DNA from: an archaeon
Lineage (GTDB): Archaea > Iainarchaeota > Iainarchaeia > Iainarchaeales > JAAZKV01
Direction of reading: 5' to 3'
Length of the DNA: 47,330 bases
Assembly: GCA_035355675.1 (NCBI GenBank)
Contig: DAOQRN010000004.1
Span: 1-47,330 of the forward strand
The notes beneath the pieces were generated by a model, which ran no database searches, was not told where the DNA came from, and worked only from the letters and a program-made list of their open reading frames with translations. Positions 24,475 to 47,330 of this stretch are shown here, in pieces. Numbering within the stretch: the stretch's first letter is position 1; each line of letters begins with the position of its first letter. Made by a program: the position numbers and the translations under genes.

Positions 24475-24549
24475 GGACGATTAGCTCAGCCTGGTTAGAG
24501 CATTAGTCTTATACACTAGGGGTCAGCGGTTCAAATCCGCTATCGTCCA
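24475..24549 (+). tRNA. tRNA-Ile (anticodon UAU)
   Basis: Clean hand-folded cloverleaf. Acceptor GGACGAT/ATCGTCC, D-arm GCTC-AGCCTGGTTA-GAGC, anticodon stem TTAGT/ACTAG, loop CUUAUAC (anticodon UAU), T-arm AGCGG-TTCAAAT-CCGCT, discriminator A. Confidence 0.85.
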
Positions 24550-24595
24550 CTTAATTTTAAAAAATTAAAAATTAAATTTGGGTTTTGTGAGAAAT

Positions 24596-30512: not shown

Positions 30513-32066
30513 TTAACTTTTTTCAGTACTTTGAGCTTCTTTTATTTCGTTTTTCTTTTTTGAAAAGAACTCTATTGCTTCTTTTAGTTCTTTGTGTGTT
30601 TTTGCATACACTTCAATTGGTATTTTTTTCTGATATGCTTCACATGATTGTACAAGTGCACGTGCTCCGCTTTGTGTTCCTTTTGGGTGAGCGTGACACC
30701 CTGCTCCCATTGTTGTAATAAAATCAATGCTTCCCATTACATCAATGAATGGTTTTAGTAGTGTTGGGTTTAGTCCTCCTGAAATTATTGGGCAACATTT
30801 TTTCATTCCTCTCCAATCATCATCTTCAAGGACTAAATGTTGTGCAAGGTCTGTGTGCACCATTTTGATTGCGTCTTTGTCGTGTTCTGGTATTTTTGAC
30901 CAACTTTGTTCAAAGAAGTGTCCTTTTCCTTTTACTCTTAAAATATTTAGTGCTGCAGTTACATCATCTTCTGGTGAACCACTCATTTTTCCTACTCCTG
31001 CAGTTCCTGTGTGTACTCCGCTTGCTCCTGCAAGTCTAGCAAATTTTGATAACACAAGGACTGAGTATCCTATTGGGTTTTCTTTTCTTGTGAATGCTCC
31101 GTGTCCTGCTCTATGGAAGTGGATAAATACATCAGGGTATTTTCTTCTTAGTGTTTGTACAGCCATCCATCCTGCAGTCATTCCATCAATTAAGAATGCA
31201 TAACTTCCTTTTTCAAATCCTGCTGCTCTTATCATTTCGCATCTTGCAATCATTGTGTCATAATCTGCTGCAGAAACATTGAATGAGTGCACCTTTTTTT
31301 TGCCAGTTTCTTTTACTGCTTTATCCATTGCTTTTTTTACATGGTCCACCATTTTATCATATGGGCAAAAATCTTGGTTTGCTTGTGGTTCATCGTTTTT
31401 AACAAAATCTCCTCCGCCTACCCAAAAATCATAACAAACTTCTGCATACTCTGCACTTGTGAGTCCCATTTTTGGTTTTATTATTGTTCCAAGGATGGGT
31501 CGGCCGTATACTCCCAAATATTTTCTCATATCATCGAGTGTGTAACTTGGTCCGTCGTATTGTTCTAGCATTGCTGGTGGGAACCAAACATCAAGTAATT
31601 TTAGTGCACTTACTTCTTTCATTCCTAAAACATTTCCAACAACGTAAGTTAAAATGTTTTGAACATTTCCTACTCTATCAAATAATCTTGTAGGGTAAGC
31701 AATCCACACAAGGTTTTTTTCTGTATCAACTTTGTAAACAAGTGAATTCATTTCTCTTGAGAAAGGTGTTTCTGTTAGTACAGAAAAATTTGTCCCGGTT
31801 GAAGATTCAGCACTCACTTCAGCACTCGCTTGTAGAATGTTTAAATTTTTTCCAGGAATTAAATGAAATACACAAAGCATGTATTCTCCATTTCTTGGAT
31901 CTTTTAAATCTAAATTAACATAAGCTGCTTGGTGAGAATTAAGAGTGGGCAAAAATTTTCTTACTTTATCATTACTTAATTTATTTATTTTAGTTTCTTT
32001 AGTATTGGAATTTTTTTTACTAACATTTTTTGATTTAATTTTCACACTTTTCTTTCCTTTAACCAT
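30513..32066 (-). CDS. rbcL: RuBisCO large subunit, form II/III-like
   Basis: Near-colinear with form II motifs: YVNLDL, ESSTGTN, GTIIKPKMGL, GGGDFVKNDEPQ (KxDE metal/carbamate site), HFHRAGHGA, PIISGG, MGAGCHAHP. The ATG at 32066 is preceded by GGTGGTGG; the track ORF starts at TTG 32081. Confidence 0.95.
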   Translation of the reverse strand: MVKGKKSVKIKSKNVSKKNSNTKETKINKLSNDKVRKFLPTLNSHQAAYVNLDLKDPRNGEYMLCVFHLIPGKNLNILQASAEVSAESSTGTNFSVLTETPFSREMNSLVYKVDTEKNLVWIAYPTRLFDRVGNVQNILTYVVGNVLGMKEVSALKLLDVWFPPAMLEQYDGPSYTLDDMRKYLGVYGRPILGTIIKPKMGLTSAEYAEVCYDFWVGGGDFVKNDEPQANQDFCPYDKMVDHVKKAMDKAVKETGKKKVHSFNVSAADYDTMIARCEMIRAAGFEKGSYAFLIDGMTAGWMAVQTLRRKYPDVFIHFHRAGHGAFTRKENPIGYSVLVLSKFARLAGASGVHTGTAGVGKMSGSPEDDVTAALNILRVKGKGHFFEQSWSKIPEHDKDAIKMVHTDLAQHLVLEDDDWRGMKKCCPIISGGLNPTLLKPFIDVMGSIDFITTMGAGCHAHPKGTQSGARALVQSCEAYQKKIPIEVYAKTHKELKEAIEFFSKKKNEIKEAQSTEKS

Positions 32067-32216
32067 TTTTTCCACCACCAAACAAAAACACTTAACTTCT
32101 AAACTTAGTACTCTTTTTTTCTATATAAACCTATCTTGGGGATCGTATTTTTTTTAATTTTTTTCTTTAATAACATTTATTAATTTCGTAATTCAAGAAT
32201 TAGTTATTGATTAAAT

Positions 32217-34515: not shown

Positions 34516-35814
34516 ATGCAACAAGATTTTTCACAAGAACCAGCAGTTCTGGGTAGAGATTTAAAGGATCTTGAAAAGTATGGTTCTCAAGGAACTGCGT
34601 ATTTAGGTAAAGTTGTAATGTCAAGCGGGGAAAGACCAGTATTGGGTAGAAAAGTAATGGTTGATGTTTCTCGTCCTCACTTAATGCTGATTTGTGGAAA
34701 AAGAGGGGGAGGAAAATCCTATACTCTTGCTGTATTAATGGAAGAAATGGCAAGGCTAGATTCTTCAATTAAATCAAGAATTTCTACAATCACAATTGAT
34801 ACTGTTGGGATTTTTTGGGGACTAAAATTGCCTGCAGCAAATGCTGATAATGTTGAACTAAGTGCTTGGGACTTAAAAGCTGAAAAAACAAATGTACAAG
34901 TTCTTGTTCCAAGAGGACAACTTGCGTTTTATCAAGAAAAAGGGTTACCAATTGATGGAGCTTTTACTTTAAAGTGTTCAGAACTTGAAGAAACAGAATG
35001 GATGGCTCTTTTTCACTTAAAGTGGTCAGATCCTGAAGGAATACTTATTTCAAGGATCGTTGCAAAAGTTCGTGAAAAAGTTGGAACATATTATGGGATT
35101 GATGACCTTATTTCTGCAACAAAAGTTGATGAAGAATCAAAACTAGAAGTTCGTCAAGCGGTAATATCACGTTTACAAATGGCTAAGAGTTGGGGGTTAA
35201 TTGAAAAAGAAGGAACAAAAATAGAGCAATTAGCACTTCCAGGAGTAATTACAGTAATTGATGTTTCTTCATATCGTCAAACCGTTGGAGCTGAAGGAAT
35301 AAAAGATATTGTTGTTGCGTTAATTGGTAAAAAAATATTTGAACAGAGAATGCTTTATAGAAAAGAAGAAGAAATGAAATTAATTAATGAAAATAAAAGA
35401 TCAAGTAAAATGCCTCTTGTGTGGTTAATGATTGATGAAGCACACATGTTTATGCCAAAAGATGAAGAAAATATTGCTTTGCCAGTTTTACTTGAATGGG
35501 TGAGAGTAGGTCGTCAACCTGGATTAGGATTAATTCTTGCAACTCAAAGACCTGAAAAAATTCACCCTGATGCAGTATCTCAATGTGATATTTTTATTTC
35601 ACACAGAATGACTTCACAACCAGATATAGCAGCAGTTGGAGCACTAAGACCAACTTACATGAACACTGATCTTGATAAATTATATTCAGAAATGCCAAGA
35701 CAAAAAGGATTCGCTCTTGTAATTGATGATAATACTGAAAAAATTTGGATGATAAAAACTAGACCTCGTTTCTCTTGGGACTCAAGTGTAACAGCAAGCG
35801 CTTTCTTAATTTAA
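34516..35814 (+). CDS. HerA/FtsK-superfamily P-loop ATPase (DUF87-like)
   Basis: Walker A CGKRGGGKSYT (nt 34696-34719), Walker B WLMIDEAHMF, and LILATQRPEKIHPDAVSQCDIFISHRMTS, typical of the HerA/VirB4/FtsK clade. Confidence 0.7.
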   Translation: MQQDFSQEPAVLGRDLKDLEKYGSQGTAYLGKVVMSSGERPVLGRKVMVDVSRPHLMLICGKRGGGKSYTLAVLMEEMARLDSSIKSRISTITIDTVGIFWGLKLPAANADNVELSAWDLKAEKTNVQVLVPRGQLAFYQEKGLPIDGAFTLKCSELEETEWMALFHLKWSDPEGILISRIVAKVREKVGTYYGIDDLISATKVDEESKLEVRQAVISRLQMAKSWGLIEKEGTKIEQLALPGVITVIDVSSYRQTVGAEGIKDIVVALIGKKIFEQRMLYRKEEEMKLINENKRSSKMPLVWLMIDEAHMFMPKDEENIALPVLLEWVRVGRQPGLGLILATQRPEKIHPDAVSQCDIFISHRMTSQPDIAAVGALRPTYMNTDLDKLYSEMPRQKGFALVIDDNTEKIWMIKTRPRFSWDSSVTASAFLI

Positions 35815-36587: not shown

Positions 36588-36726
36588 GAACCAACACCCC
36601 GAATAACTATGGTTTTTCTAATATTTAATGCTATCCCGAATAGGATTTTGTAATTATAATTAGTTAATTTAACTGTTATTTTCTTTGCCCAATATCTTTT
36701 TAAAACAACTTTTGGAAAATTATGTT

Positions 36727-39114
36727 ATGGTTTCTAAAAGTAAAGCAACAAAAATTCAGTCATTTTTTAGAACAAGAGAATTTCTTGCTTTATTTGTTTT
36801 ATTTATTCTTTTTTGTATAGCATTACTTGTTGTTCCTTTTTGGGGGACAGCAAAAATAAATGAATTTTCTTCAGCAAATTTTTATTTTAATGAATATGAC
36901 AAATTAATTGATGAAAACAATCAATTTTGTTTTTCTTTTTCAATTGATACACAAAGTACAAAAGTTCATGAGGATAGAATAAGTGTTTTTGTTAATCAAA
37001 ATGTAATATTTTCAGAACCAATTGTAATTGTTGCAGAAAACTCTGATCAAGAATTATTTAATTATTATGGCGGAATAAAAAAGAATTATTGTTTTGATTC
37101 ATTTTACCTAAATGATGGAAACAATGTTGTTTCTGTTTCTCTTGGTTCTCAAAAATTATTTTACCACATACAAAAAGTTGATTTATTAGTTGAACCAATT
37201 ACAAAATTAGAAATAATTGATATTAATTCAGAAGGGGTATTGTTTAATTTAGATTTGAAAAACTATGATTCATTTAAACCGTTAATGATTTCAATTAATG
37301 ATAAAGAAATTCAAAAGATATATCCTGGCCAAGGGAATAAAGATTATTTTGAAAAAATTGATTTTGTTGAAGGACAAAATAAAATTAATTTATCTTTTAA
37401 TGGAGTGAGTATTTCTAAAGAATACTTTTACACTCCACAAATAAAAATGAATCCAATTATTGGTTTTCTATTTTTTATTTTAATAATGGGGATTTTTTCT
37501 TTATTTGTTTTTTCTAAAAAAAGTTTTATTGAAAAATCCGCTCTTTCATTGATGAGCGCTTTTGCATTAATAGTATCAACAGGATTTATTTTGAACTTTT
37601 TCAAAATGCTGAATTTGTTTTCATTTTTGTTTTTAAATTTATTAATACTTTTATTATTATTTTTTGTTTTTAAAAATAATTATTCTTCAAAAACTTTTTC
37701 TTTAGAAGATAAACAAAAAATTATTAGCCCGATTTTTGTAGTGATTATTTTGGGCGCGATTTTACTTCCTCTTTTTATTAATTTTTTTACTGTTAGTAAT
37801 TTTTCTTATTGGAATACTTACTATGAAAGGCATGCTGAATCTTTGGCAGAAAATTTTGAACTACCAATAATTGATGAATTAAGTTATTTTGGTAGGCCTT
37901 TAGGATTTATTCCAGGGTATTTTTATTTACAATCAGGATTTTCTTGGATTTTTGGAGTTAGTGGTCAAGAATTATTTTCTCTTGGTTTAATAATTGCTAA
38001 CATATTTTTCATTTTCGCTGTTTTAATGCTTGGAGAGAGTCTTGGGTTTTCAAGAAATAAATCCGCAATACTTTATGTTTTACTTTGGATGGAAAATTTT
38101 ATTAGAACTGGGTTAATAATTAGTCCAAGACACGCGTTTTCTTTTGGATTATTTATTGTAGCACTTTCTTTAGTTTTGAGTAATCGTTCAAAATTAAAAG
38201 AAAAAATACTTTCATCAATTTCTCTAGCAATTTGCGGGTTTATTCAATTCCCACTCTTTGTTGCTTTTATTCCACTGTACTTAATTGTTGCAAAAAAAAT
38301 TGAATTAAAAAAAGTAATAATTATTTGGTTAGTTGCTGGAGCAATATTTTTGTTATTTTTTGTCCCAAACTTTTTGAATTTTGGTTTCCCTACGCAAGCA
38401 GAATCCTCAAATTGGGGTTACTTAATTAATTATGATGCAGTAAATATTTTACTTGACTTTGGGCCAATGTTTGTTTTCTTTTTCTTATTCACAATATTTG
38501 ATTTAAAAGAAAGAAAATTTTCTCTTTTGGGATATGAAAAGAAATTATTTATTGGAGTAATTTTGGGTTTGTTGTTTCAAATATTTATTAGTTATAGGTG
38601 GAATATTTTTAATGCAATAAATTTTGCAGTATTTTTAGTTATTTTAATTCCTGAAAAAGCTTTTGAAAGTAAATATTTTATTAGAGTGATTGCAATAATA
38701 ATGCTCTTTGTTGGATTAATTAGTGGATCAACAATTGGGTATTTATCAATAACAAACTATTTAACCGAACCTTATGATTTTTTATCTAACAATTCTTCTT
38801 CCACTGAAAGAATTTTATCAGATCCATTATTTAGTCATGATATAACTTATTTCACGAACAGATCAGTTATGGCAGATTTAGCTGTTGAATACGCTCCTGA
38901 AGAAATGCTTCAAGAAAATTTTAAATTTTTAGAGGAAAAAGATTACTCAATAATTGATAAGTATAATATAAATTGGGTTTTTTCTCAAAAAAACTTTATT
39001 AACCGAAAAGCATTTGGGAACAAACCCCTTGATTATGAACTTGAATTTGAAAAACTTGATAAAGTATTTTCAAATGCTTTAATCAATATTCATTGGAACT
39101 CAAAAAATCAGTGA
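36727..39114 (+). CDS. Large polytopic membrane protein with N-terminal extracytoplasmic beta-rich domain (GT-C-like topology is only a guess)
   Basis: ATG at 36727 (track ORF starts at TTG 36685). One TM helix, a ~200-aa beta-rich domain, at least 12 TM helices, and a ~130-aa C-terminal soluble domain. No WWDYG or DxD motif identified. Confidence 0.45.
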   Translation: MVSKSKATKIQSFFRTREFLALFVLFILFCIALLVVPFWGTAKINEFSSANFYFNEYDKLIDENNQFCFSFSIDTQSTKVHEDRISVFVNQNVIFSEPIVIVAENSDQELFNYYGGIKKNYCFDSFYLNDGNNVVSVSLGSQKLFYHIQKVDLLVEPITKLEIIDINSEGVLFNLDLKNYDSFKPLMISINDKEIQKIYPGQGNKDYFEKIDFVEGQNKINLSFNGVSISKEYFYTPQIKMNPIIGFLFFILIMGIFSLFVFSKKSFIEKSALSLMSAFALIVSTGFILNFFKMLNLFSFLFLNLLILLLLFFVFKNNYSSKTFSLEDKQKIISPIFVVIILGAILLPLFINFFTVSNFSYWNTYYERHAESLAENFELPIIDELSYFGRPLGFIPGYFYLQSGFSWIFGVSGQELFSLGLIIANIFFIFAVLMLGESLGFSRNKSAILYVLLWMENFIRTGLIISPRHAFSFGLFIVALSLVLSNRSKLKEKILSSISLAICGFIQFPLFVAFIPLYLIVAKKIELKKVIIIWLVAGAIFLLFFVPNFLNFGFPTQAESSNWGYLINYDAVNILLDFGPMFVFFFLFTIFDLKERKFSLLGYEKKLFIGVILGLLFQIFISYRWNIFNAINFAVFLVILIPEKAFESKYFIRVIAIIMLFVGLISGSTIGYLSITNYLTEPYDFLSNNSSSTERILSDPLFSHDITYFTNRSVMADLAVEYAPEEMLQENFKFLEEKDYSIIDKYNINWVFSQKNFINRKAFGNKPLDYELEFEKLDKVFSNALINIHWNSKNQ

Positions 39115-40606: not shown

Positions 40607-43270
40607 TTGGTGAGCAAGAAAGAAAAACTAGTTTATATGTTTGAAGAGGGAGATAAGTCAATGAAGATGCTTCTTGGAGGAAAAGGAGCTAATTTAGCGG
40701 ATATGACAAGAATTGGGTTACCGGTTCCTTACGGATTCACTATTACTACTGATGTATGTAAAGCATACTATGCGAACGGAAAAAAACACTCAAAATTACT
40801 TGATGAACAAATGATGATTGCTGTAAAAAAACTAGAAAAGAAAACAGGAAAAAAATTTGGGGACAAAAAAGATCCTTTACTAGTATCTGTTAGAAGTGGA
40901 GCTCCAGCATCAATGCCAGGAATGATGGACACAATTTTGAATTTAGGAATGAATGATGTGGTAGTTGCAACAATTGCGACTGCTACAAAGAATGAAAGAT
41001 TCGCTTATGATTCTTATAGAAGATTTATTACAATGTTCGCTGATGTGGTGATGGAAGTAGACAGAATGAAGTTTGAACACATCATGGATGAAATCAAGCA
41101 CGCTAACAAAATAAAACAAGACACAGAAATGACTACAGAAATGTTAAAAGAATTAGTTGAAAAATTTAAAGTTCTTTATAAAAAAGAAACTAAAGAAGAT
41201 TTCCCACAAGACCCAATTGAACAATTAAAGAGATCAAGAGATGCAGTGTTTAGAAGTTGGATGAATGATCGTGCAATAGTTTATAGAAGATTAAACAATG
41301 TACCAGGAGATTGGGGAACAGCGGTTAATGTTCAAGAAATGGTTTTTGGAAACATGGGAGAAACTAGTGGAACAGGAGTTGCTTTCACAAGAAACCCTTC
41401 AACCGGAGAAAACAAATTCTACGGAGAGTTCTTAATGAATGCACAAGGAGAAGATGTTGTTGCAGGAATAAGAACTCCAAAAAAAGTAGAAGAACTTGGT
41501 CGTGTTTTACCAAAAGTATACAAAGAACTAGTAGCAATAAGATCAAAGTTAGAAAAATCTTATAGAGATATGCAAGATTTTGAGTTCACAATAGAACACG
41601 AAAAATTGTATATGCTTCAAACAAGAAACGGTAAAAGAACAGCACACGCTGCAGTAAAAATTGCAGTTGATATGGTGCAAGAAAAATTAATTACAAAAGA
41701 AGAAGCAGTTCTTAGAGTTGACCCTGCTTCACTTGATCAATTGTTACACAAACAATTTGATCCAAAATACAAATACACTGCAATCACAGAAGGATTACCA
41801 GCTTCTCCAGGAGCAGCAGTAGGAAAAGTAGTATTCAATGCACTTGATGCAAAGATGTGGGCAGAGAAAGGAGAAAAAGTTATTCTAGCAAGACTAGAAA
41901 CTTCTCCAGAAGATATAGAAGGAATGCATTCTTCAGTTGGGATTTTAACTGCTCGGGGTGGAATGACTTCTCACGCAGCTGTTGTTGCTCGAGGAATGGG
42001 TAAGTGCTGTGTTGCTGGATGTGATGAGATCACAATGGATGAGAAAGGAAAAAAATTCACAGTAAAAGGAACAGTAGTAAAAGAAGGGGATGTAATTTCT
42101 CTAAATGGTTCTACTGGACACGTAATAATTGGAGCAGTTCCTGTTGTTGAACCAACACTATCAGGAGACTTTGCAACACTCATGAGTTGGGCTGATGGAT
42201 TTAGAAAACTAAAAATCAGAACAAACGCAGACACTCCACACGACGCAAAAGTTGCTAGAAAGTTTGGTGCTGAAGGAATTGGGTTAATTAGAACCGAACA
42301 CATGTTCTTTGAAGCAACAAGAATCAAAGCTGTTAGAGAAATGATTTTAGCAAAAGACGTTGAAGGTAGAAAAAAAGCTTTAGCAAAAATCGAACCTTAT
42401 CAAAGAGAAGACTTTGAAGGAATATTCACAGCAATGAATGGACTCCCAGTAATTATTAGAATGCTTGATCCACCACTACACGAATTTTTGCCAAGACACG
42501 AACAAACAAAAGAAATAGAAGAACTATCTAAGGAACTTGGAGTTAGTGCTGAAGAAATTAAAAACACAATAACTTCTCTTCACGAATTTAATCCAATGCT
42601 AGGATTTAGAGGATGCAGACTTGCTATAGTTTATCCTGAAATAATGGAAATGCAAGTAAGAGCAATCTTTTCAGCCGCACTAAATGTTTCAAAAAAAGGA
42701 GTGAAAGCAATTCCTGAAATAGAAATACCTTTAGTTGGAAATGTAAAAGAGTATAATCCATTAGCAGAACTAACTCACAGAATAGCTAAAGAAATGAATG
42801 TAAAAGGAAAAGTTCACTATACTGTTGGAACAATGATTGAAGTTCCAAGAGCTGCACTAACCGCAGATGTTTTAGCAAAAGAAGCAGAGTTCATGTCATT
42901 TGGTACAAACGATTTAACTCAAATGACTTGCGGATTCTCAAGAGACGACGCAGCAAAATTCTTAGTACCATATGTTGAGAAAGGAATTTATGCAAGAGAC
43001 CCATTCACTACAATTGACCAAGAAGGAGTTGGGTTACTAATGAAACAAGCAGTAATGCTTGCAAGACTTGTAAGACCAAACATAGATATTGGAATATGCG
43101 GAGAACACGGAGGAGACCCGGCAACAGTAGAGTTCTGCCACAGAATAGGAATGAGTAATGTTAGTTGCTCTCCTTACAGAGTACCAATTGCAAGATTAGC
43201 TGCTGCACACGCTGCAATAAAAGAAAAACAAGCAGCGAAAACAAGTGTAACAAAAAAGAAAAGAAAATAA
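40607..43270 (+). CDS. ppdK: Pyruvate, phosphate dikinase
   Basis: LLGGKGANLADM, phospho-His loop GILTARGGMTSHAAVVARGMGK, and the C-terminal PEP-utilising TIM barrel (GLIRTEHMF, FMSFGTNDLTQ, GICGEHGGDP). Non-ATG start (TTG 40607 or GTG 40610) with GGAG upstream. Confidence 0.95.
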   Translation: MVSKKEKLVYMFEEGDKSMKMLLGGKGANLADMTRIGLPVPYGFTITTDVCKAYYANGKKHSKLLDEQMMIAVKKLEKKTGKKFGDKKDPLLVSVRSGAPASMPGMMDTILNLGMNDVVVATIATATKNERFAYDSYRRFITMFADVVMEVDRMKFEHIMDEIKHANKIKQDTEMTTEMLKELVEKFKVLYKKETKEDFPQDPIEQLKRSRDAVFRSWMNDRAIVYRRLNNVPGDWGTAVNVQEMVFGNMGETSGTGVAFTRNPSTGENKFYGEFLMNAQGEDVVAGIRTPKKVEELGRVLPKVYKELVAIRSKLEKSYRDMQDFEFTIEHEKLYMLQTRNGKRTAHAAVKIAVDMVQEKLITKEEAVLRVDPASLDQLLHKQFDPKYKYTAITEGLPASPGAAVGKVVFNALDAKMWAEKGEKVILARLETSPEDIEGMHSSVGILTARGGMTSHAAVVARGMGKCCVAGCDEITMDEKGKKFTVKGTVVKEGDVISLNGSTGHVIIGAVPVVEPTLSGDFATLMSWADGFRKLKIRTNADTPHDAKVARKFGAEGIGLIRTEHMFFEATRIKAVREMILAKDVEGRKKALAKIEPYQREDFEGIFTAMNGLPVIIRMLDPPLHEFLPRHEQTKEIEELSKELGVSAEEIKNTITSLHEFNPMLGFRGCRLAIVYPEIMEMQVRAIFSAALNVSKKGVKAIPEIEIPLVGNVKEYNPLAELTHRIAKEMNVKGKVHYTVGTMIEVPRAALTADVLAKEAEFMSFGTNDLTQMTCGFSRDDAAKFLVPYVEKGIYARDPFTTIDQEGVGLLMKQAVMLARLVRPNIDIGICGEHGGDPATVEFCHRIGMSNVSCSPYRVPIARLAAAHAAIKEKQAAKTSVTKKKRK

Positions 43271-43283
43271 ATTTAAAAAAAAG

Positions 43284-43320
43284 TGAAAGAGGATAAAACC
43301 TCTTTCATTTTACTATTTTT
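43284..43320 (+). terminator. Hairpin plus T-rich tail after ppdK
   Basis: 9-bp stem tgaaagagg / cctctttca (43284-43307), followed by ttttactattttt. Confidence 0.55.
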
Positions 43321-43374
43321 ATATATTTTTTATAGGTAAATATTATTATAAATTGATAAATAAATTATTACTTT

Positions 43375-45987
43375 ATGAATTTAGATGATAAATTATCTGA
43401 GTTTTTACAAACACAGGATTTTGATAAAAAAATTGAACTAGCATTGGAACTTGCTTTGGATTATTCTAATATTGGTGATTTAAATAAATCTAAAGAATTT
43501 TATGGGAAACATTACTTTTATTTAGCAGAACAACAATCTTATGTTGGTGAACTTGATTTAAGTTTTATAAATTATGAAAAATCATTTGAGTATTATAAGG
43601 AGATAGGTGATTTTGTTGGATTATGCGGCCTCATGAAAAAAGTTAGTTCTAAATTAAGAAAAAGTTTAAAATATCAAAATTATGTAGTTGCTAAAAAGTT
43701 TGCTGAATTAAATAAAAAAATAATTGACAATGCATCAAAAATAAATCCATCTTTTTCAAAATCTGATGATTTAAATTTATACAATCATTTGGCTAAAGTA
43801 AATATTTGGGAAATTGAACTTGCTGAAATTAATAAAAAAGATTATGCATTAAGAATTGATTATTATAAAAAACTTATGGATGAATATTATCAAATAAAAG
43901 AAATTAATATCGATTATTTGAAAGGGTATTATTATCATTCAGCTAATTATAATTCATTGATGGGTGGTAAAAACTTTTCTGAAGAAAACTATTCTTTGGC
44001 AAGAAAAAATTATTTTTTAGCAATCGAATTTTTTGAAAAATTAGAATCTTATAATCCTGCATTTCATTGTTGGTCAAGTGTTTTGAATACTTTTCCAAAA
44101 GAAATTGATAAAGGTGTTGATAATTTAATAGATTTTGAAAAAAACTTTAATAAATTTATTTATGATTATGAAAAAAAGAAAGGAATTAAAGAAGAAGAAT
44201 TTGTGGATTTGGTAGGATTTGTTTATAAAAAGTTGTCTATGTATTTTAGAAAAAGAAAGAATTTTGAAAAATCTGATCTTTATTCAAAAAAGGCAATTGA
44301 TTTGTATTCTAAGTTATCTGGAGTTAATTTAAATTCTTCAATGAAATATGGGTTGTTATGGTCGAGATATTTTCAATTACAAAGTTCAATAAAAAAATTG
44401 AAAAGTAGTGGCGTTTCAATAGATGAGAAATTAGTAGTTTACGAGAAATTAAAAAAAGAAGGCGAGTCTGCCGTATTGGAAATTAAAGACCCTGTAGAAA
44501 AAGAAAAATTCAATAAAGTTTATTTAAATGATTTAGCACAATATCATAAATTTTTAGCATTAAAAAATAAATATGATAAAGAAAATTTTATTTTAAATAT
44601 TGACAAAGCAATTGAATACTCAAAAGAAACAGATGATAGCAATTCTGTTGAGTATCTTTCAGCAATTAAACTTGAACATTTAGCTATTTTTGAAAAGGAT
44701 TTTAAAATTAAAATTGATCTGTTTTCAAAAGCAAAGGATAGTTATTATAAACTTGGTTTTAAAGAGGTGGCTAAACAGATTGACCTTTTAATAAAATACA
44801 CCTATTTAGTGGATAAGGTAAAGATAGGTGATTATGATTCAGCAATAAATCTTATTGATCAAATTTCAAAAGAAATTAAAAATTTAAAAAGTTATAATCC
44901 AATTTTATCTGATCTTTATAAAGAACGATATTTATTATTGGCGAGAAAGGCAATCTTCTCTGAGGATTGGGATGTTGCACAGAAAAATATTCAAATTTGG
45001 TTGGATGAAAGTATTGATTCTGATGGAACAAAAAAGTATTTGTTTAATAGTGCATTTTTTGAAATTGTTAAGGCTATGTCATTGAAAGGAGTTTCAATAG
45101 AATCACTTTCAAAGATTGAAAATGATTTGTTAAAAATAAAATTAAATAATTTGGGGATGGAGGTGTATAATTTAGTTTCATTAGTTTATTCTTTTTTAGT
45201 TTTAAAAAAACTTGGTGTAGTTAGTGAATCTGTACTTAATGAGATTAGATTAAGCATCATAAAAATAGCTACTGACGAGCATTTTTCGTCAGAATTAAAA
45301 AATGATTCTCGAATAAAAGTTGCTTTGGAGGAAAAAGAATGGTTAAGTAGGATTTCAATGAACTTAATTGAAGTTTATGATAAAAATGATTATTTTTTAA
45401 GTGATGTTCAAGAAGAATTCAAAGACAGTGCTATTCAAAGATTTTACAAATTTATTGAAAATTTATTTGTAAACTTTTTATCATACACTATGCAAAAAAA
45501 TTGGGGTGAAAATTGGGAGTCTAAATGTGTGTCTATTATTGACAAAGAAATTTATAAGTGGACTTTTGGAGAACAAGTTATTTTTTTGAAAGCTCTTGTT
45601 AGTGAAGGAGTTAAGTTTGAATTGATTGATGATAACTTTTTGAAATTATTAGATTCGCATGTAACTGTTAGAAATAAATTAACTCATAATTATTCAGAAA
45701 CCAGTTTTGCTGAAAAAATTGATGAAATTAAAAAAATTATTTTTGTTATTGTTCAAAATTCCCCAATTTTAATAAAAGTAATTTCTGATAAAAAAGCTCC
45801 TTGGTACTGCGTTGAAGCTGATTGGGGGAAAGTTCAGAAAAGATTTGATATCAATTCGAAAAAGCTACTTTCACTAAATAAACTTTATTTGATGGATTTA
45901 AGAGTTGAACCAACTCTTGAAGGCAAAAAACCAATTTTCCTGGAGTCTAATGAAATATTTGAAATTGATATTCCCTCTAAAAATTAA
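43375..45987 (+). CDS. Large helical-repeat (TPR-like) protein with C-terminal HEPN-like (Rx4H) domain
   Basis: 870 aa. About 680 aa of Y/K/E/L-rich helical repeats come first. Next is FYKFIENLFVNFL, NWGENW, WTFGEQVIFLKAL, HVTVRNKLTHNY with R766-x4-H771 (nt 45670-45687). A ~80-aa beta-rich tail follows. Confidence 0.55.
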   Translation: MNLDDKLSEFLQTQDFDKKIELALELALDYSNIGDLNKSKEFYGKHYFYLAEQQSYVGELDLSFINYEKSFEYYKEIGDFVGLCGLMKKVSSKLRKSLKYQNYVVAKKFAELNKKIIDNASKINPSFSKSDDLNLYNHLAKVNIWEIELAEINKKDYALRIDYYKKLMDEYYQIKEINIDYLKGYYYHSANYNSLMGGKNFSEENYSLARKNYFLAIEFFEKLESYNPAFHCWSSVLNTFPKEIDKGVDNLIDFEKNFNKFIYDYEKKKGIKEEEFVDLVGFVYKKLSMYFRKRKNFEKSDLYSKKAIDLYSKLSGVNLNSSMKYGLLWSRYFQLQSSIKKLKSSGVSIDEKLVVYEKLKKEGESAVLEIKDPVEKEKFNKVYLNDLAQYHKFLALKNKYDKENFILNIDKAIEYSKETDDSNSVEYLSAIKLEHLAIFEKDFKIKIDLFSKAKDSYYKLGFKEVAKQIDLLIKYTYLVDKVKIGDYDSAINLIDQISKEIKNLKSYNPILSDLYKERYLLLARKAIFSEDWDVAQKNIQIWLDESIDSDGTKKYLFNSAFFEIVKAMSLKGVSIESLSKIENDLLKIKLNNLGMEVYNLVSLVYSFLVLKKLGVVSESVLNEIRLSIIKIATDEHFSSELKNDSRIKVALEEKEWLSRISMNLIEVYDKNDYFLSDVQEEFKDSAIQRFYKFIENLFVNFLSYTMQKNWGENWESKCVSIIDKEIYKWTFGEQVIFLKALVSEGVKFELIDDNFLKLLDSHVTVRNKLTHNYSETSFAEKIDEIKKIIFVIVQNSPILIKVISDKKAPWYCVEADWGKVQKRFDINSKKLLSLNKLYLMDLRVEPTLEGKKPIFLESNEIFEIDIPSKN

Positions 45988-46044
45988 CTCTTTTTTATTG
46001 ATTTAGAAACTAATTAAAACCATTCTTAACCTAATTTTGTTATT

Positions 46045-47330
46045 ATGTTTGAACAAGTTTTTAAGAAAATTGATGATATTCTTTGGAAAGACGCTGGATG
46101 TGGTAGTGAGTTAGATTATGTTGAGCAAACTTCTTGGATTCTTTTTTTGAAATACCTTGATGATCTTGAAAAAGAAAAAAAGATTTCAGCTAAATTAGCA
46201 GGAAAAACTTATACTAGCATAATTAGTTCAGAATTTCAGTGGAGTGTTTGGGCTGTTCCTAAAGGAAGAGATGGTAAGTTGGATGATCATAAAGCTCTTA
46301 CTGGTGATGATTTAATCGATTTTGTTAATCAAAAATTATTTCCTTATTTAAAAAAGTTTAAAGTAAATGCTGAAAGTCCAGACACTATTCAATATAAGAT
46401 TGGGGAAATTTTTAGTGAATTAAAGAACCGAGTTCAAAGTGGATATAATTTGCGAGAAGTAATTAATCTAATTGATCAACTGCGTTTTGGTTCAAACGCT
46501 GAAAAACATGAAATGTCACACTTATATGAATCAAAAATTCAAAATATGGGTAACGCTGGAAGAAATGGTGGAGAATATTACACTCCGCGTCCATTGATTA
46601 AAACAATTGTTAAAGTTGTAGAACCAAAAATTGGAGATAAAATTTATGATGGTGCTGTTGGTTCAGCAGGGTTCTTATGTGAAGCATTTGAGTATTTAAA
46701 GAACAGTAAAAATCTTGCGACTAAAGATTTAGAAACACTTCAAAAGAATACTTTTTATGGAAAAGAGAAAAAATCACTTGCATATATTATTGGGATTATG
46801 AATTTGATTTTTCATGGAGTTAGTTCTCCAAACATAATTCACACAAATACTCTTTCCACAAATATAACTGATATTCAAGAAAAAGATAAATATGATGTTG
46901 TTTTAGCAAATCCTCCGTTTGGTGGAAAAGAACGAATAGAAGTTCAACAGAATTTTCCAATTAAAACTGGGGAAACTGCTTTTCTATTTTTACAACATTT
47001 TATTAAAATATTGAAAGCTGAAGGTAAAGCTGGAATTGTTATAAAAAACACATTTTTATCAAATACTGATAATGCATCAATTTCGCTTAGAAAACATTTA
47101 TTGGAAAGTTGTAATCTACACACTGTTTTAGATTTGCCCAGTGGGACATTTTTGGGGGCTGGAGTAAAAACAGTTGTGTTATTTTTTGAGAAAGGTGCCC
47201 CAACAAGAAAAATATATTATTACCAACTTAATTTAGATAGAAATTTAGGTAAGACTAATCCTTTGAATGAAAATGATTTAGCTGAATTTGTTAAATTACA
47301 AAAAACAAAAGCTAATTCGGATAATTCATG
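46045..47330 (+). CDS. hsdM: Type I restriction-modification system methyltransferase subunit (partial, runs off the right edge)
   Basis: My translation from the ATG at 46045 has no stop to the end of the window. It has the HsdM N-domain pattern (ILWKDAGCGSELDYVEQTSWILFLKYLDD), YYTPRPL, AdoMet motif I DGAVGSAGF, and motif IV NPPFGG at 46909 onward. Not in the ORF track because it has no stop. Confidence 0.9.
   Translation, partial: MFEQVFKKIDDILWKDAGCGSELDYVEQTSWILFLKYLDDLEKEKKISAKLAGKTYTSIISSEFQWSVWAVPKGRDGKLDDHKALTGDDLIDFVNQKLFPYLKKFKVNAESPDTIQYKIGEIFSELKNRVQSGYNLREVINLIDQLRFGSNAEKHEMSHLYESKIQNMGNAGRNGGEYYTPRPLIKTIVKVVEPKIGDKIYDGAVGSAGFLCEAFEYLKNSKNLATKDLETLQKNTFYGKEKKSLAYIIGIMNLIFHGVSSPNIIHTNTLSTNITDIQEKDKYDVVLANPPFGGKERIEVQQNFPIKTGETAFLFLQHFIKILKAEGKAGIVIKNTFLSNTDNASISLRKHLLESCNLHTVLDLPSGTFLGAGVKTVVLFFEKGAPTRKIYYYQLNLDRNLGKTNPLNENDLAEFVKLQKTKANSDNS

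What the first reader, a model, noticed from the sequence alone, without database searches (positions are those of the whole stretch)
43375..47330. Helical-repeat protein with HEPN-like Rx4H domain directly upstream of a type I R-M methyltransferase
Seen in the sequence:
- An 870-aa ORF has ~680 N-terminal residues of helical repeats with no enzymatic motif.
- Its C-terminal region reads FYKFIENLFVNFLSYTMQKNWGENW...WTFGEQVIFLKALVSE...HVTVRNKLTHNY, with an Rx4H dyad at nt 45670-45687.
- hsdM (NPPFGG, AdoMet motif I) starts 57 nt downstream on the same strand, and the window ends inside it.

Established knowledge: Rx4-6H is the catalytic signature of HEPN RNases. HEPN proteins recur in abortive-infection and R-M-linked defence loci.

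Inference: this may be a sensor (repeat array) plus RNase effector coupled to a type I R-M system. I do not recognise that domain architecture as a described system.

Caveat: a T6 run right after the stop codon could separate the two transcripts.
Basis: partly seen in the sequence, partly recalled or inferred. Interest (0 to 1): 0.7.

Follow-up and report, generated by a model that had tools for sequence, protein, structure and literature searches.

The report
Archaeal TPR-HEPN RNase beside hsdM
This archaeal gene encodes a long helical-repeat protein ending in a probable RNA-cutting (HEPN) domain, from a small unannotated family usually found among antiviral defence genes; its position next to a type I restriction-modification gene is local to this genome, not a conserved partnership.

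Summary
An 870-aa ORF (43375-45987, +) carries RNKLTH at nt 45670-45687, and a type I hsdM starts 57 nt downstream and runs off the window.

An exhaustive search found about 28 homologous clusters. R766, N767 and H771 are invariant in all 28. A confident AlphaFold model gives three parts:
- a TPR-type solenoid (residues 1-633; 54 significant fold hits, all TPR scaffolds);
- a four-helix HEPN-like bundle with the motif at the end of helix 3;

The link to known HEPN families is consistent but sub-threshold (family consensus against HEPN_Swt1 E=8e-5, 23.3 bits against a 27.5-bit cut-off; Foldseek HEPN hits E=0.17-0.5).

The host is an archaeon, probably DPANN. Of eight informative neighbourhoods, five are defence islands (Gabija, Lamassu, GmrSD, AbiV, AbiEii, Mrr). 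hsdM is directly adjacent only in the window, and Mrr is directly adjacent in three.

Most likely this is a stand-alone sensor-plus-RNase defence protein sitting in a variable defence locus, not a subunit of the R-M system. TPR-HEPN fusions and HEPN-R-M linkage were described in 2013. I rate it a new variant of a known kind, of moderate interest.

The parts
43375..45987 (+). 870-aa ORF encoding the TPR-HEPN-OB-like protein (P0001)
   Evidence: ORF list. No hit at threshold in Pfam, PADLOC, NCBIfam or PHROGs. About 28 homologous clusters by exhaustive phmmer.
43375..45273 (+). TPR-type alpha-solenoid, residues 1-633, about 30 antiparallel helices; the presumed sensor or scaffold
   Evidence: AF2 full-length model, pLDDT 85. 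Foldseek PDB gave 54 hits at E<=1e-3, all TPR/solenoid scaffolds such as Ski3, Ctr9, IFT-A, SPINDLY/OGT, LGN and Rap. TPR Pfam hits in 11/28 homologs. No Walker A, and conserved positions are mainly apolar or aromatic.
45325..45762 (+). HEPN-like helical bundle, residues ~651-796: helix-1 662-677, helix-2 680-721 with E695, insert helix 731-743 with G732, helix-3 753-769, helix-4 778-795
   Evidence: AF2 C-terminal model, pLDDT 88.8, pTM 0.86, and the full-length model. Topology matches the description in PMC3710099. Pfam HEPN_Swt1 hits in 11/28 members, and the family consensus scores E=8.1e-5. Weak Foldseek hits to HEPN structures 2hsb, 5yep, 6m6w and 7bxo.
45670..45687 (+). RNKLTH, the Rx4H catalytic dyad (R766, N767, H771) at the end of helix-3
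   Evidence: Invariant in 28/28 family members, with one such motif per protein at the homologous position.
45763..45972 (+). Conserved C-terminal beta domain, residues ~797-866, OB-fold-like; possibly RNA-binding
   Evidence: Beta strands in both AF2 models. P797 invariant; Y811, W817 and Y838 near-invariant. Only weak fold hits, all to OB-folds: NfeD-C 2exd prob 0.94, TDRD3 OB, Teb1, CST, IF-1A. No Pfam hit for the tail consensus.
45991..45996 (+). T6 run 3 nt after the stop codon; a possible archaeal termination signal between the two genes
   Evidence: Sequence. T6+ runs occur within 30 nt after 12/35 stops, against 11% of background windows. No hairpin terminator here.
46045..47330 (+). 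hsdM (type I R-M methyltransferase), first 428 codons; cut off by the window end
   Evidence: Pfam N6_Mtase 6e-56, HsdM_N 9e-10. PADLOC MTase_I 4.4e-147, profile positions 2-418 of 491. NPPFGG in the sequence.
43280..43311 (.). Inverted repeat with T-tails on both strands after the pyruvate phosphate dikinase gene; marks the upstream boundary of the TPR-HEPN transcription unit
   Evidence: Terminator-like scan found 3 sites against 0.5 expected. PPDK identity: TIGR01828, 1378 bits.

Best explanation
The ORF encodes a single-polypeptide sensor-effector with three parts: a ~630-residue TPR superhelix, one HEPN ribonuclease domain with an intact R-N-x3-H dyad, and a small OB-like beta domain.

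It belongs to a small, unannotated, apparently mostly archaeal family. Members sit alone, with no fixed partner gene, in variable defence islands.

Proposed mechanism (inferred):
1. The protein is latent.
2. The TPR array binds a viral or stress-related protein ligand, or mediates oligomerisation.
3. This brings two HEPN domains together into the composite metal-independent RNase site typical of HEPN enzymes.
4. The OB-like tail helps to hold the RNA.
5. RNA cleavage stops translation, giving an abortive-infection or dormancy outcome.

The adjacent type I hsdM is a co-resident of the same defence locus, not an obligatory partner.

Shown here: the domain layout, the conservation of the dyad and the defence-island contexts. 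Inferred: RNase activity, dimerisation, the trigger, and the defence phenotype.
For: - R766, N767 and H771 are invariant in 28/28 members and E695 is present in 27/28.
- In the AF2 models the dyad lies at the end of helix-3, before the loop to helix-4. There is an acidic residue in helix-2 and an insert helix between helices 2 and 3. This is the layout described for HEPN in PMC3710099.
- Weak Pfam hits are concentrated in the HEPN clan: Swt1 in 11/28 members; Apea, MAE_28990, Abi_2, DUF4145, RiboL-PSP, Csm6, HepT and KEN in fewer. The family consensus against HEPN_Swt1 scores E=8.1e-5 over profile positions 4-105 of 115.
- HEPN structures take 6 of the top 20 Foldseek PDB hits of the C-terminal model.
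- The N-terminus is a TPR solenoid with no NTPase motif.
- Defence-island contexts are confirmed by PADLOC. P0007 lies between Gabija (GajB 7e-74) and Lamassu (LmuA/B/C) genes and an integrase/primase element. P0017 lies between GmrSD and Mrr, AbiV and TIR genes, with hsdRSM nearby. P0004 lies between Fic and Mrr genes and AbiEii. P0002 lies next to Mrr and an SNF2/NOV_C/MTase cluster.
- No partner gene is conserved across the eight contexts.
- The family is sporadic: 31 clusters among 1.84 billion representatives.
- Validated single-protein sensor-HEPN defence systems exist, for example DS-11, a CBS-HEPN protein (PMC13092281).
- DPANN archaea are reported to be enriched in compact single-gene systems (PMC12988326).
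Against: - No match to a known HEPN family or structure reaches a curated or significant threshold. The window protein scores 12.8-14.7 bits against HEPN_Swt1 (cut-off 27.5), and Foldseek HEPN hits have E=0.17-0.5 with TM 0.40-0.47.
- Two of the eight contexts show no defence genes. P0005 lies among archaeal housekeeping genes with only a transposase fragment beside it, and the P0033 context is ambiguous.
- The neighbourhood sample is small, and most homolog contigs are too short to be informative.
- RNase activity, dimerisation and the ligand of the TPR array are all untested.
- The window itself shows only one defence-type neighbour (hsdM), and the rest of the locus is missing.
Confidence: 0.55

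Rival explanations
1. Restriction guard, following the PrrC logic. The TPR-HEPN protein physically monitors a neighbouring restriction system, type I HsdM/S/R here and Mrr elsewhere. It is held inactive by that system and released as an RNase when a virus inhibits restriction.
For: hsdM starts 57 nt downstream on the same strand. A full-length Mrr lies directly adjacent on the same strand in 3 of 8 contexts, with gaps of 68-325 nt. P0017 also has a complete hsdRSM 3.5 kb away. The relatedness of the Mrr proteins follows that of the TPR-HEPN proteins. The PrrC-EcoprrI precedent, and the proposal that R-M-linked HEPN proteins act as a second line of defence, are in PMC3710099.
Against: No single restriction partner is conserved, and several members have none. 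Mrr is upstream in two loci and downstream in one. The window has no Mrr. A T6 run follows the stop codon in an archaeon where such runs are enriched after stops. There is no ABC-ATPase module as in PrrC. The matching Mrr and TPR-HEPN relatedness could simply reflect host phylogeny.
Confidence: 0.17
2. A housekeeping or stress-response RNA-processing enzyme of archaea. It would be a TPR-scaffolded HEPN nuclease analogous to eukaryotic Swt1 or Las1, or to Ski3-type RNA-decay scaffolds, and its position beside hsdM would be a coincidence.
For: P0005 lies among archaeal housekeeping genes (ribosomal proteins, enolase, RNA polymerase subunits). In the window the upstream neighbour is pyruvate phosphate dikinase. 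The best fold matches of the solenoid include Ski3, an RNA-decay scaffold.
Against: The distribution is very sporadic for a housekeeping gene: 31 clusters at 50% identity in 1.84 billion representatives, and none among 185,579 species-representative genomes with the patterns used. Most informative contexts are defence islands or mobile elements. P0005 is flanked by a transposase fragment. Ski3-type matches reflect generic TPR geometry (TM 0.14-0.26).
Confidence: 0.1
3. A toxin of an addiction or selfish module carried by mobile elements. It would stabilise the island or element rather than defend against viruses, with an unrecognised small antitoxin nearby.
For: HEPN domains are common toxins of TA systems such as HepT-MNT (PMC3710099). 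P0007 is next to an integrase/primase element, and P0039 is near ParE and ParA genes. In three other metagenomes the 4-kb segment carrying the gene is bounded by assembly breaks.
Against: No conserved small neighbouring ORF is seen across the loci. A 630-residue TPR array is atypical for TA toxins and typical of sensor-effector proteins.
Confidence: 0.08
4. A non-catalytic RNA- or protein-binding scaffold in which the HEPN-like bundle only binds ligand, as proposed for MtlR and eukaryotic Swt1.
For: Some HEPN domains are non-catalytic (PMC3710099). The match to HEPN families is sub-threshold.
Against: Non-catalytic HEPN domains have lost the dyad. Here R, N and H are invariant in 28/28 sequences that share only 20-39% overall identity.
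Confidence: 0.05

Closest known systems
Swt1-like HEPN domains (Pfam PF18731; the Abi2/Swt1 group of Anantharaman et al. 2013), including bacterial versions fused to STAND-ATPase, TPR and S1 domains
   Same: This is the best-scoring described family for the C-terminal bundle. It matches 11/28 members, and the family consensus scores E=8e-5 with near full-length profile coverage. It has the same RNxxxH-type dyad and the same helix-1/2 acidic residue. Fusions of this family to TPR and to an OB-fold (S1) domain, and links to R-M operons, are already recorded.
   Different: All scores are below the Pfam gathering cut-off. There is no STAND or AAA+ NTPase. The order is TPR, then HEPN, then an OB-like tail. 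The tail matches no Pfam family. The family appears mostly archaeal.
PrrC / RloC anticodon nucleases (HEPN RNases; PrrC is embedded in the type Ic EcoprrI hsdMSR locus)
   Same: A HEPN RNase encoded beside type I R-M genes. The idea is a latent RNase acting as a second line of defence.
   Different: PrrC and RloC have an N-terminal ABC-ATPase regulator. This protein has a TPR solenoid and no Walker A motif. PrrC lies inside the hsd operon, and that linkage defines the system. Here the linkage to hsdM is not conserved among homologs.
Single-protein HEPN defence and abortive-infection proteins (ApeA; AbiD/F/J/U2/V; DS-11 CBS-HEPN)
   Same: One polypeptide combines a non-catalytic N-terminal module with a C-terminal HEPN domain, and resides in defence islands. 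For DS-11, catalytic HEPN residues were shown to be required for defence. HEPN_Apea is the second-best Pfam match of the family consensus.
   Different: There is no PADLOC, Pfam or NCBIfam match to any of them. The N-terminal module is a very long TPR array. There is an extra OB-like tail. No experimental data exist.
TPR-fused HEPN families LA2681 and C6orf70 (DUF4209) of Anantharaman et al. 2013
   Same: The architecture of TPR repeats plus a HEPN domain. C6orf70 versions occur in R-M-related operons. LA2681 is 'in operon with TPR', and P0039 here likewise has two small TPR genes directly upstream.
   Different: Neither family appears among the Pfam families listed for the members' C-terminal domains (the top 25 of 34 families were shown, and all hits were shown for the window protein and the family consensus). 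The nearest family is Swt1, so this is an independent or strongly diverged TPR-HEPN fusion.
Avs / bacterial NLR-like STAND defence proteins
   Same: A long TPR-type sensor array joined to a nuclease effector in one protein. The proposed logic is ligand binding, then oligomerisation, then effector activation.
   Different: There is no STAND NTPase module, which defines that group (and no such Pfam hit). The effector is C-terminal to the repeats.

Membership tests
HEPN superfamily | Conserved Rx4-6H motif with a polar residue after R | tested here: met
   RNxxxH is present in 28/28 aligned members at the homologous column. R766, N767 and H771 are invariant.
HEPN superfamily | [quoted passage not shown] | tested here: met
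   In the AF2 models (pLDDT 88.8 and 85), helix 753-769 ends in R766/N767, H771 begins the loop, and helix 778-795 follows. There is an insert helix at 731-743. Compared with the description in PMC3710099. This rests on a predicted structure, not an experimental one.
HEPN superfamily | Conserved acidic residue in the N-terminal half (helix-2) near the active site | tested here: met
   E695 is present in 27/28 members and lies in helix 680-721.
HEPN superfamily | Statistically significant sequence or structure similarity to an established HEPN family | tested here: inconclusive
   Family consensus against HEPN_Swt1: E=8.1e-5, 23.3 bits. Against HEPN_Apea: 2.3e-3. 11/28 members hit HEPN_Swt1, best E=1.4e-4. 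Foldseek HEPN hits 2hsb, 5yep, 6m6w and 7bxo have E=0.17-0.55 and TM 0.40-0.47. PDB sequence profile search found no HEPN chain.
HEPN superfamily | Metal-independent endoribonuclease activity, usually in a dimer | not testable with these tools
   Needs biochemistry. No multimer prediction tool was available.
Pfam HEPN_Swt1 (PF18731) | Score at or above the gathering cut-off of 27.5 bits | tested here: not met
   The window protein's C-terminus scores 12.8-14.7 bits and the family consensus 23.3 bits.
TPR / alpha-solenoid repeat proteins | Tandem helix-turn-helix repeats forming a superhelix | tested here: met
   About 30 antiparallel helices across residues 2-633. 54 Foldseek hits at E<=1e-3, all TPR scaffolds. 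TPR Pfam families hit 11/28 homologs. The window protein itself has no significant TPR sequence hit (TPR_2 E=1.4).
PrrC/RloC-type R-M-coupled anticodon nuclease | N-terminal ABC-ATPase regulatory module | tested here: not met
   No Walker A motif in any of the 28 members, and no ATPase family hit.
PrrC/RloC-type R-M-coupled anticodon nuclease | Conserved embedding in a type I hsd operon | tested here: not met
   hsdM is directly adjacent only in the window. One other locus has hsdRSM 3.5 kb away on the opposite strand. Six other contexts lack it.
STAND/Avs NLR-like defence proteins | Central STAND NTPase domain | tested here: not met
   No P-loop motif and no NTPase family hit. The model is all helical repeats up to the HEPN domain.
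Known defence systems in PADLOC-DB v2 (including ApeA and the Abi HEPN proteins) | Match to a system protein model | tested here: not met
   0 families for the 870-aa protein at E<=1.
Type I R-M system (downstream gene) | HsdM: HsdM_N plus N6_Mtase domains with the NPPF motif | tested here: met
   Pfam 6e-56 and 9e-10; PADLOC MTase_I 4.4e-147; NPPFGG in the sequence.
Type I R-M system (downstream gene) | Presence of hsdS and hsdR partners | not testable with these tools
   The window and three further identical contigs all end inside hsdM at 47312 or 47330. A scan for continuing contigs found nothing.

The most novel reading that the evidence does not exclude
TPR-HEPN-OB proteins could be an archaeal 'restriction guard'. 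The TPR solenoid would dock onto neighbouring restriction enzymes (Mrr-type type IV enzymes in several lineages, a type I enzyme in this DPANN-like archaeon). It would release a HEPN RNase when a virus disables restriction. This is the PrrC logic reinvented with a wholly different, ATPase-free sensor, in a domain of life where abortive infection has hardly been studied.
Probability: 0.12. Interest if true: 0.65.

Novelty: new variant of a known kind. Interest (0 to 1): 0.4.

Why it matters
If the prediction holds, this is an unannotated, mostly archaeal family of single-gene sensor-RNase defence proteins that Pfam, NCBIfam and PADLOC all miss. Reported surveys find that archaea, and DPANN lineages in particular, have few recognised defence systems beyond R-M and CRISPR (PMC12988326), so each candidate single-gene system helps fill that gap. 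The family also offers a compact test case for how a TPR array without an NTPase could gate a HEPN nuclease. The repeated Mrr adjacency gives a concrete hypothesis of restriction-RNase cooperation that can be tested. The concept itself is well established: HEPN RNases fused to repeat sensors, sitting next to R-M genes. The finding therefore extends a known theme and does not open a new one.

Tried and rejected
Searches that led nowhere:
- Word-indexed homology searches with the full protein, the C-terminus and the family alignment found only the protein itself or nothing. Lys/Asn-rich and TPR words appear to have filled the candidate list. The exhaustive phmmer search was what revealed the family.
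- Two scans of species-representative genomes found no relative. Two alignments were too divergent for the scan tool.
- A viral contig scan found none.
- tblastn of the C-terminus against plasmids found no match.
- Extending the contig failed. An exact-match scan of metagenome contigs for window 47285-47312 found nothing, not even the known JGI contigs. Whether hsdS and hsdR follow remains unknown.
- PDB sequence searches with the single protein and with two profiles gave only TPR designs or chance hits such as CYP17A1.
- Foldseek of the C-terminal model against PDB and BFVD gave no significant hit.
- The sigma-70 promoter scan was at background level and is irrelevant for an archaeon.

Ideas considered and rejected:
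- STAND/Avs-like protein: no NTPase.
- PrrC family member: no ABC-ATPase.
- Member of LA2681, C6orf70 or ApeA: no matches to LA2681 or C6orf70, and only a weak secondary match to Apea.
- Two-gene Mrr module as the general rule: Mrr is absent from the window and from several loci.

Full report
**1. The observation**

- The window holds an 870-codon ORF at 43375-45987 on the + strand.
- Its C-terminal part reads ...HVTVRNKLTHNY..., with R766 to H771 at nt 45670-45687.
- The next gene starts at 46045, 57 nt after the stop codon, on the same strand, and runs off the end of the window.
- That gene is a type I DNA methyltransferase: Pfam N6_Mtase 6e-56 and HsdM_N 9e-10; PADLOC MTase_I 4.4e-147 over profile positions 2-418 of 491. 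NPPFGG is visible in the DNA.
- A T6 run lies at 45991-45996.

**2. The host**

The window comes from an archaeon.
- It encodes a thermosome subunit (NF041083, 769 bits, above the cut-off), a FlaI-type ATPase and a form II/III-type RuBisCO.
- It is about 28% G+C.
- Three contigs from other metagenome assemblies (one ENA, two JGI samples) carry the same gene with 100% nucleotide identity.

A small-genome DPANN-like archaeon is my inference from these features. It was not tested.

**3. Is the protein an orphan?**

- It matches nothing at threshold in Pfam, PADLOC, NCBIfam, PHROGs or PDB sequences.
- The word-indexed homology search found only the protein itself.
- The exhaustive phmmer search of 1.84 billion cluster representatives found 31 proteins at E<=1e-3 and 27 at E<=1e-10.
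- The closest, P0002, is 39% identical over the full length. The others are 22-32% identical over roughly residues 150-840.

So there is a real but small and sporadic family.

**4. The C-terminal domain**

In the alignment of 28 members, the only invariant residues are G732, R766, N767, H771 and P797. W656, F690, E695, H762, Y811, W817 and Y838 are nearly invariant. Each protein has exactly one RNxxxH motif at the homologous position.

Sequence evidence for HEPN:
- Isolated C-terminal segments give weak Pfam hits that fall almost only in the HEPN clan. HEPN_Swt1 hits 11 of 28 members (best E=1.4e-4). Apea, MAE_28990, Abi_2, DUF4145, RiboL-PSP, Csm6, HepT, NTase_sub_bind and KEN each hit a few.
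- The family consensus hits HEPN_Swt1 at E=8.1e-5 (23.3 bits, profile positions 4-105 of 115) and HEPN_Apea at 2.3e-3.
- All scores are below the Pfam gathering cut-off of 27.5 bits.

Structure evidence for HEPN:
- AlphaFold2 with the family alignment gives a confident model of residues 650-870 (mean pLDDT 88.8, pTM 0.86).
- Its layout matches the published HEPN description. [quoted passage not shown]
- In the model, helix 753-769 ends in R766/N767 and H771 begins the loop to helix 778-795. E695 lies in helix 680-721. An extra helix (731-743) sits between helices 2 and 3.
- Foldseek against the PDB gives no significant hit. HEPN structures (AF_0298 2hsb; HepT toxins 5yep, 6m6w, 7bxo) take six of the top twenty places, at E=0.17-0.55 and TM 0.40-0.47.

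My reading is that this is a divergent HEPN domain, nearest to the Swt1/Abi2 branch, with an intact catalytic dyad. It is not a member of the curated Pfam family.

**5.

- After the HEPN bundle comes a conserved beta domain of about 70 residues (about 797-866). Its conserved pattern is FPxCI...PWYDxEILW...PKRIxLYS...YYxEP.
- It has no Pfam match.
- Its only fold matches are weak, and all are to OB-folds: NfeD C-terminal domain 2exd (prob 0.94), TDRD3 OB, Teb1, CST and viral IF-1A models.

An OB-like RNA-binding role is plausible but not established.

**6. The N-terminal region**

- The full-length model (mean pLDDT 85) shows about 30 antiparallel helices from residue 2 to 633, followed by a low-confidence linker at 636-650.
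- Foldseek finds 54 PDB chains at E<=1e-3, and all are TPR or alpha-solenoid scaffolds: Ski3, Ctr9, IFT-A subunits, SPINDLY/OGT, LGN/Pins, Rap and APC/C.
- TPR Pfam families hit 11 of 28 homologs.
- No member has a Walker A motif, and the conserved N-terminal positions are almost all Ala, Tyr, Phe, Leu, Ile or Trp.

**7. Gene neighbourhoods**

| Member / locus | Neighbours |
|---|---|
| Window | PPDK with a hairpin terminator upstream; hsdM downstream |
| P0002 / L004 | Mrr 89 nt upstream on the same strand; beyond it an SNF2-helicase, NOV_C and MTase cluster |
| P0004 / L013 | Fic and Mrr upstream; AbiEii downstream |
| P0007 / L012 | Gabija (GajB 7e-74) and Lamassu (LmuA 3e-60, LmuC, LmuB 6e-129) upstream; primase and integrase downstream |
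| P0017 / L015 | Complete hsdR-S-M 3.5 kb upstream on the other strand; GmrSD; then the gene; Mrr 68 nt downstream (mREase_IV 4e-89); AbiV; a TIR protein; a HepT/MNT pair |
| P0039 / L017 | ParE, two small TPR genes, ParA, and a helicase plus an MZB-domain protein |
| P0005 / L006 | Archaeal housekeeping genes with only a transposase fragment beside it |
| P0033 / L014 | Ambiguous |

- Five of the eight contexts are clear defence islands, and one more is a mobile-element region.
- No partner gene is shared by all.
- hsdM is directly adjacent only in the window.
- The other contigs examined were too short to be informative.

**8. Relation to the hsdM gene in the window**

- T6+ runs occur within 30 nt after 12 of 35 stop codons in this window, against 11% of background windows. 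This fits the established use of oligo-T tracts as archaeal terminators. The T6 run 3 nt after the stop may therefore end the transcript, but read-through cannot be excluded from sequence alone.
- A TTTATATA box lies at 43318-43325, 50 nt upstream of the ATG. It could be an archaeal TATA element, but it is unremarkable in DNA this AT-rich (inference).
- In three other assemblies, the 4-kb piece carrying this gene is bounded by contig ends. The upstream ends fall at 43130-43249, inside the 3' end of the PPDK gene, and the downstream ends at 47312 or 47330, inside hsdM. This suggests branch points of a strain-variable region.
- Whether hsdS and hsdR follow could not be determined.

**9. Most likely function**

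The best-supported reading is a stand-alone sensor-effector.
1. The TPR solenoid binds a protein ligand or drives oligomerisation.
2. Two HEPN domains then pair to form the composite, metal-independent RNase site known for the superfamily.
3. The OB-like tail may hold the RNA.
4. Cleavage of cellular or viral RNA arrests the infected cell.

Shown: the domain layout, the invariant dyad and the defence-island residence. Inferred: RNase activity, dimerisation, the trigger and the phenotype.

Validated parallels exist, for example the single-protein CBS-HEPN system DS-11, in which HEPN catalytic residues are needed for defence (PMC13092281). DPANN archaea are reported to be enriched in compact single-gene systems (PMC12988326).

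The main rival is a PrrC-like guard of neighbouring restriction enzymes. Its support comes from hsdM adjacency here and Mrr adjacency in three loci. It is weakened by the absence of any conserved partner, the variable gene order, and the lack of an ATPase regulator.

**10. Comparison with what is known**

Anantharaman et al. 2013 already list:
- HEPN domains fused to TPR: families C6orf70 and LA2681, and Swt1-like proteins with STAND-ATPase, TPR and S1 domains;
- HEPN proteins with OB-fold RNA-binding domains;
- at least 16 HEPN clades linked to R-M systems, interpreted by analogy with PrrC.

So the concept is not new. What is new is this particular family. No curated model recognises it, it lacks an NTPase, its order is TPR then HEPN then an OB-like tail, and it appears mostly on archaeal-looking contigs. 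I rate it a new variant of a known kind, with moderate interest.

Noticed in passing
L004 4976-5824; L013 2664-3572; L015 12238-13140: A full-length Mrr (Mrr_N plus Mrr_cat, 282-302 aa) lies directly next to the TPR-HEPN gene on the same strand in 3 of 8 informative loci. It is upstream in two and downstream in one, with gaps of 68-325 nt. The Mrr proteins' relatedness (59% against 34-36% identity) follows that of their TPR-HEPN neighbours (36% against 27%). The window has no Mrr.
   Followed up: partly
window 43130-47330 (contigs L001-L003): Three contigs from other metagenome assemblies are 100% identical to the window. All begin at 43130-43249, in the 3' end of the PPDK gene, and end at 47312 or 47330, inside hsdM, as the window does. 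The 4-kb piece therefore seems bounded by assembly-graph branch points, as expected for a strain-variable island or a repeated hsdM 3' part.
   Followed up: partly
window 34516-35814 and 36685-39114: A HerA-like ATPase ORF (DUF87; weak match to the anti-phage-associated HerA model, far below the cut-off) is followed by an 809-aa ORF with no family match. This could be another defence or repair pair a few kb upstream of the finding.
   Followed up: no
window 24475-24550 and 24578-27460: A tRNA-Ile with anticodon UAU lies immediately upstream of the isoleucyl-tRNA synthetase gene. From memory, tRNA-Ile(UAU) is unusual in archaea and is reported for a few small-genome lineages, which would fit a DPANN-like host.
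   Followed up: no
window 30513-32081 (-): A RuBisCO large subunit of the form II/III type (NF010002, 638 bits) occurs in an archaeon that also has a thermosome and a FlaI-type ATPase. This fits the nucleotide-salvage RuBisCO described in DPANN and related archaea.
   Followed up: no
L017 8829-9371 and 9508-9777: Two small TPR-only genes lie directly upstream of the family member P0039 on the same strand. This recalls the 'in operon with TPR' note for the LA2681 HEPN family in the 2013 survey.
   Followed up: no
L004 156-4896: Next to P0002 and its Mrr lies a cluster of an N6_N4 methyltransferase, a NOV_C (DUF3883) protein, an SNF2/ResIII helicase and a 384-aa protein with no PADLOC match. It resembles the SNF2-DUF3883 R-M type that the 2013 survey links to Swt1/Abi2-type HEPN proteins.
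   Followed up: no
P0005, P0025, P0026, P0028 (C-terminal extensions): Some family members continue for 100-500 residues beyond the OB-like tail. P0018 and P0028 also have long N-terminal extensions carrying strong canonical TPR hits. These extra regions were not analysed.
   Followed up: no
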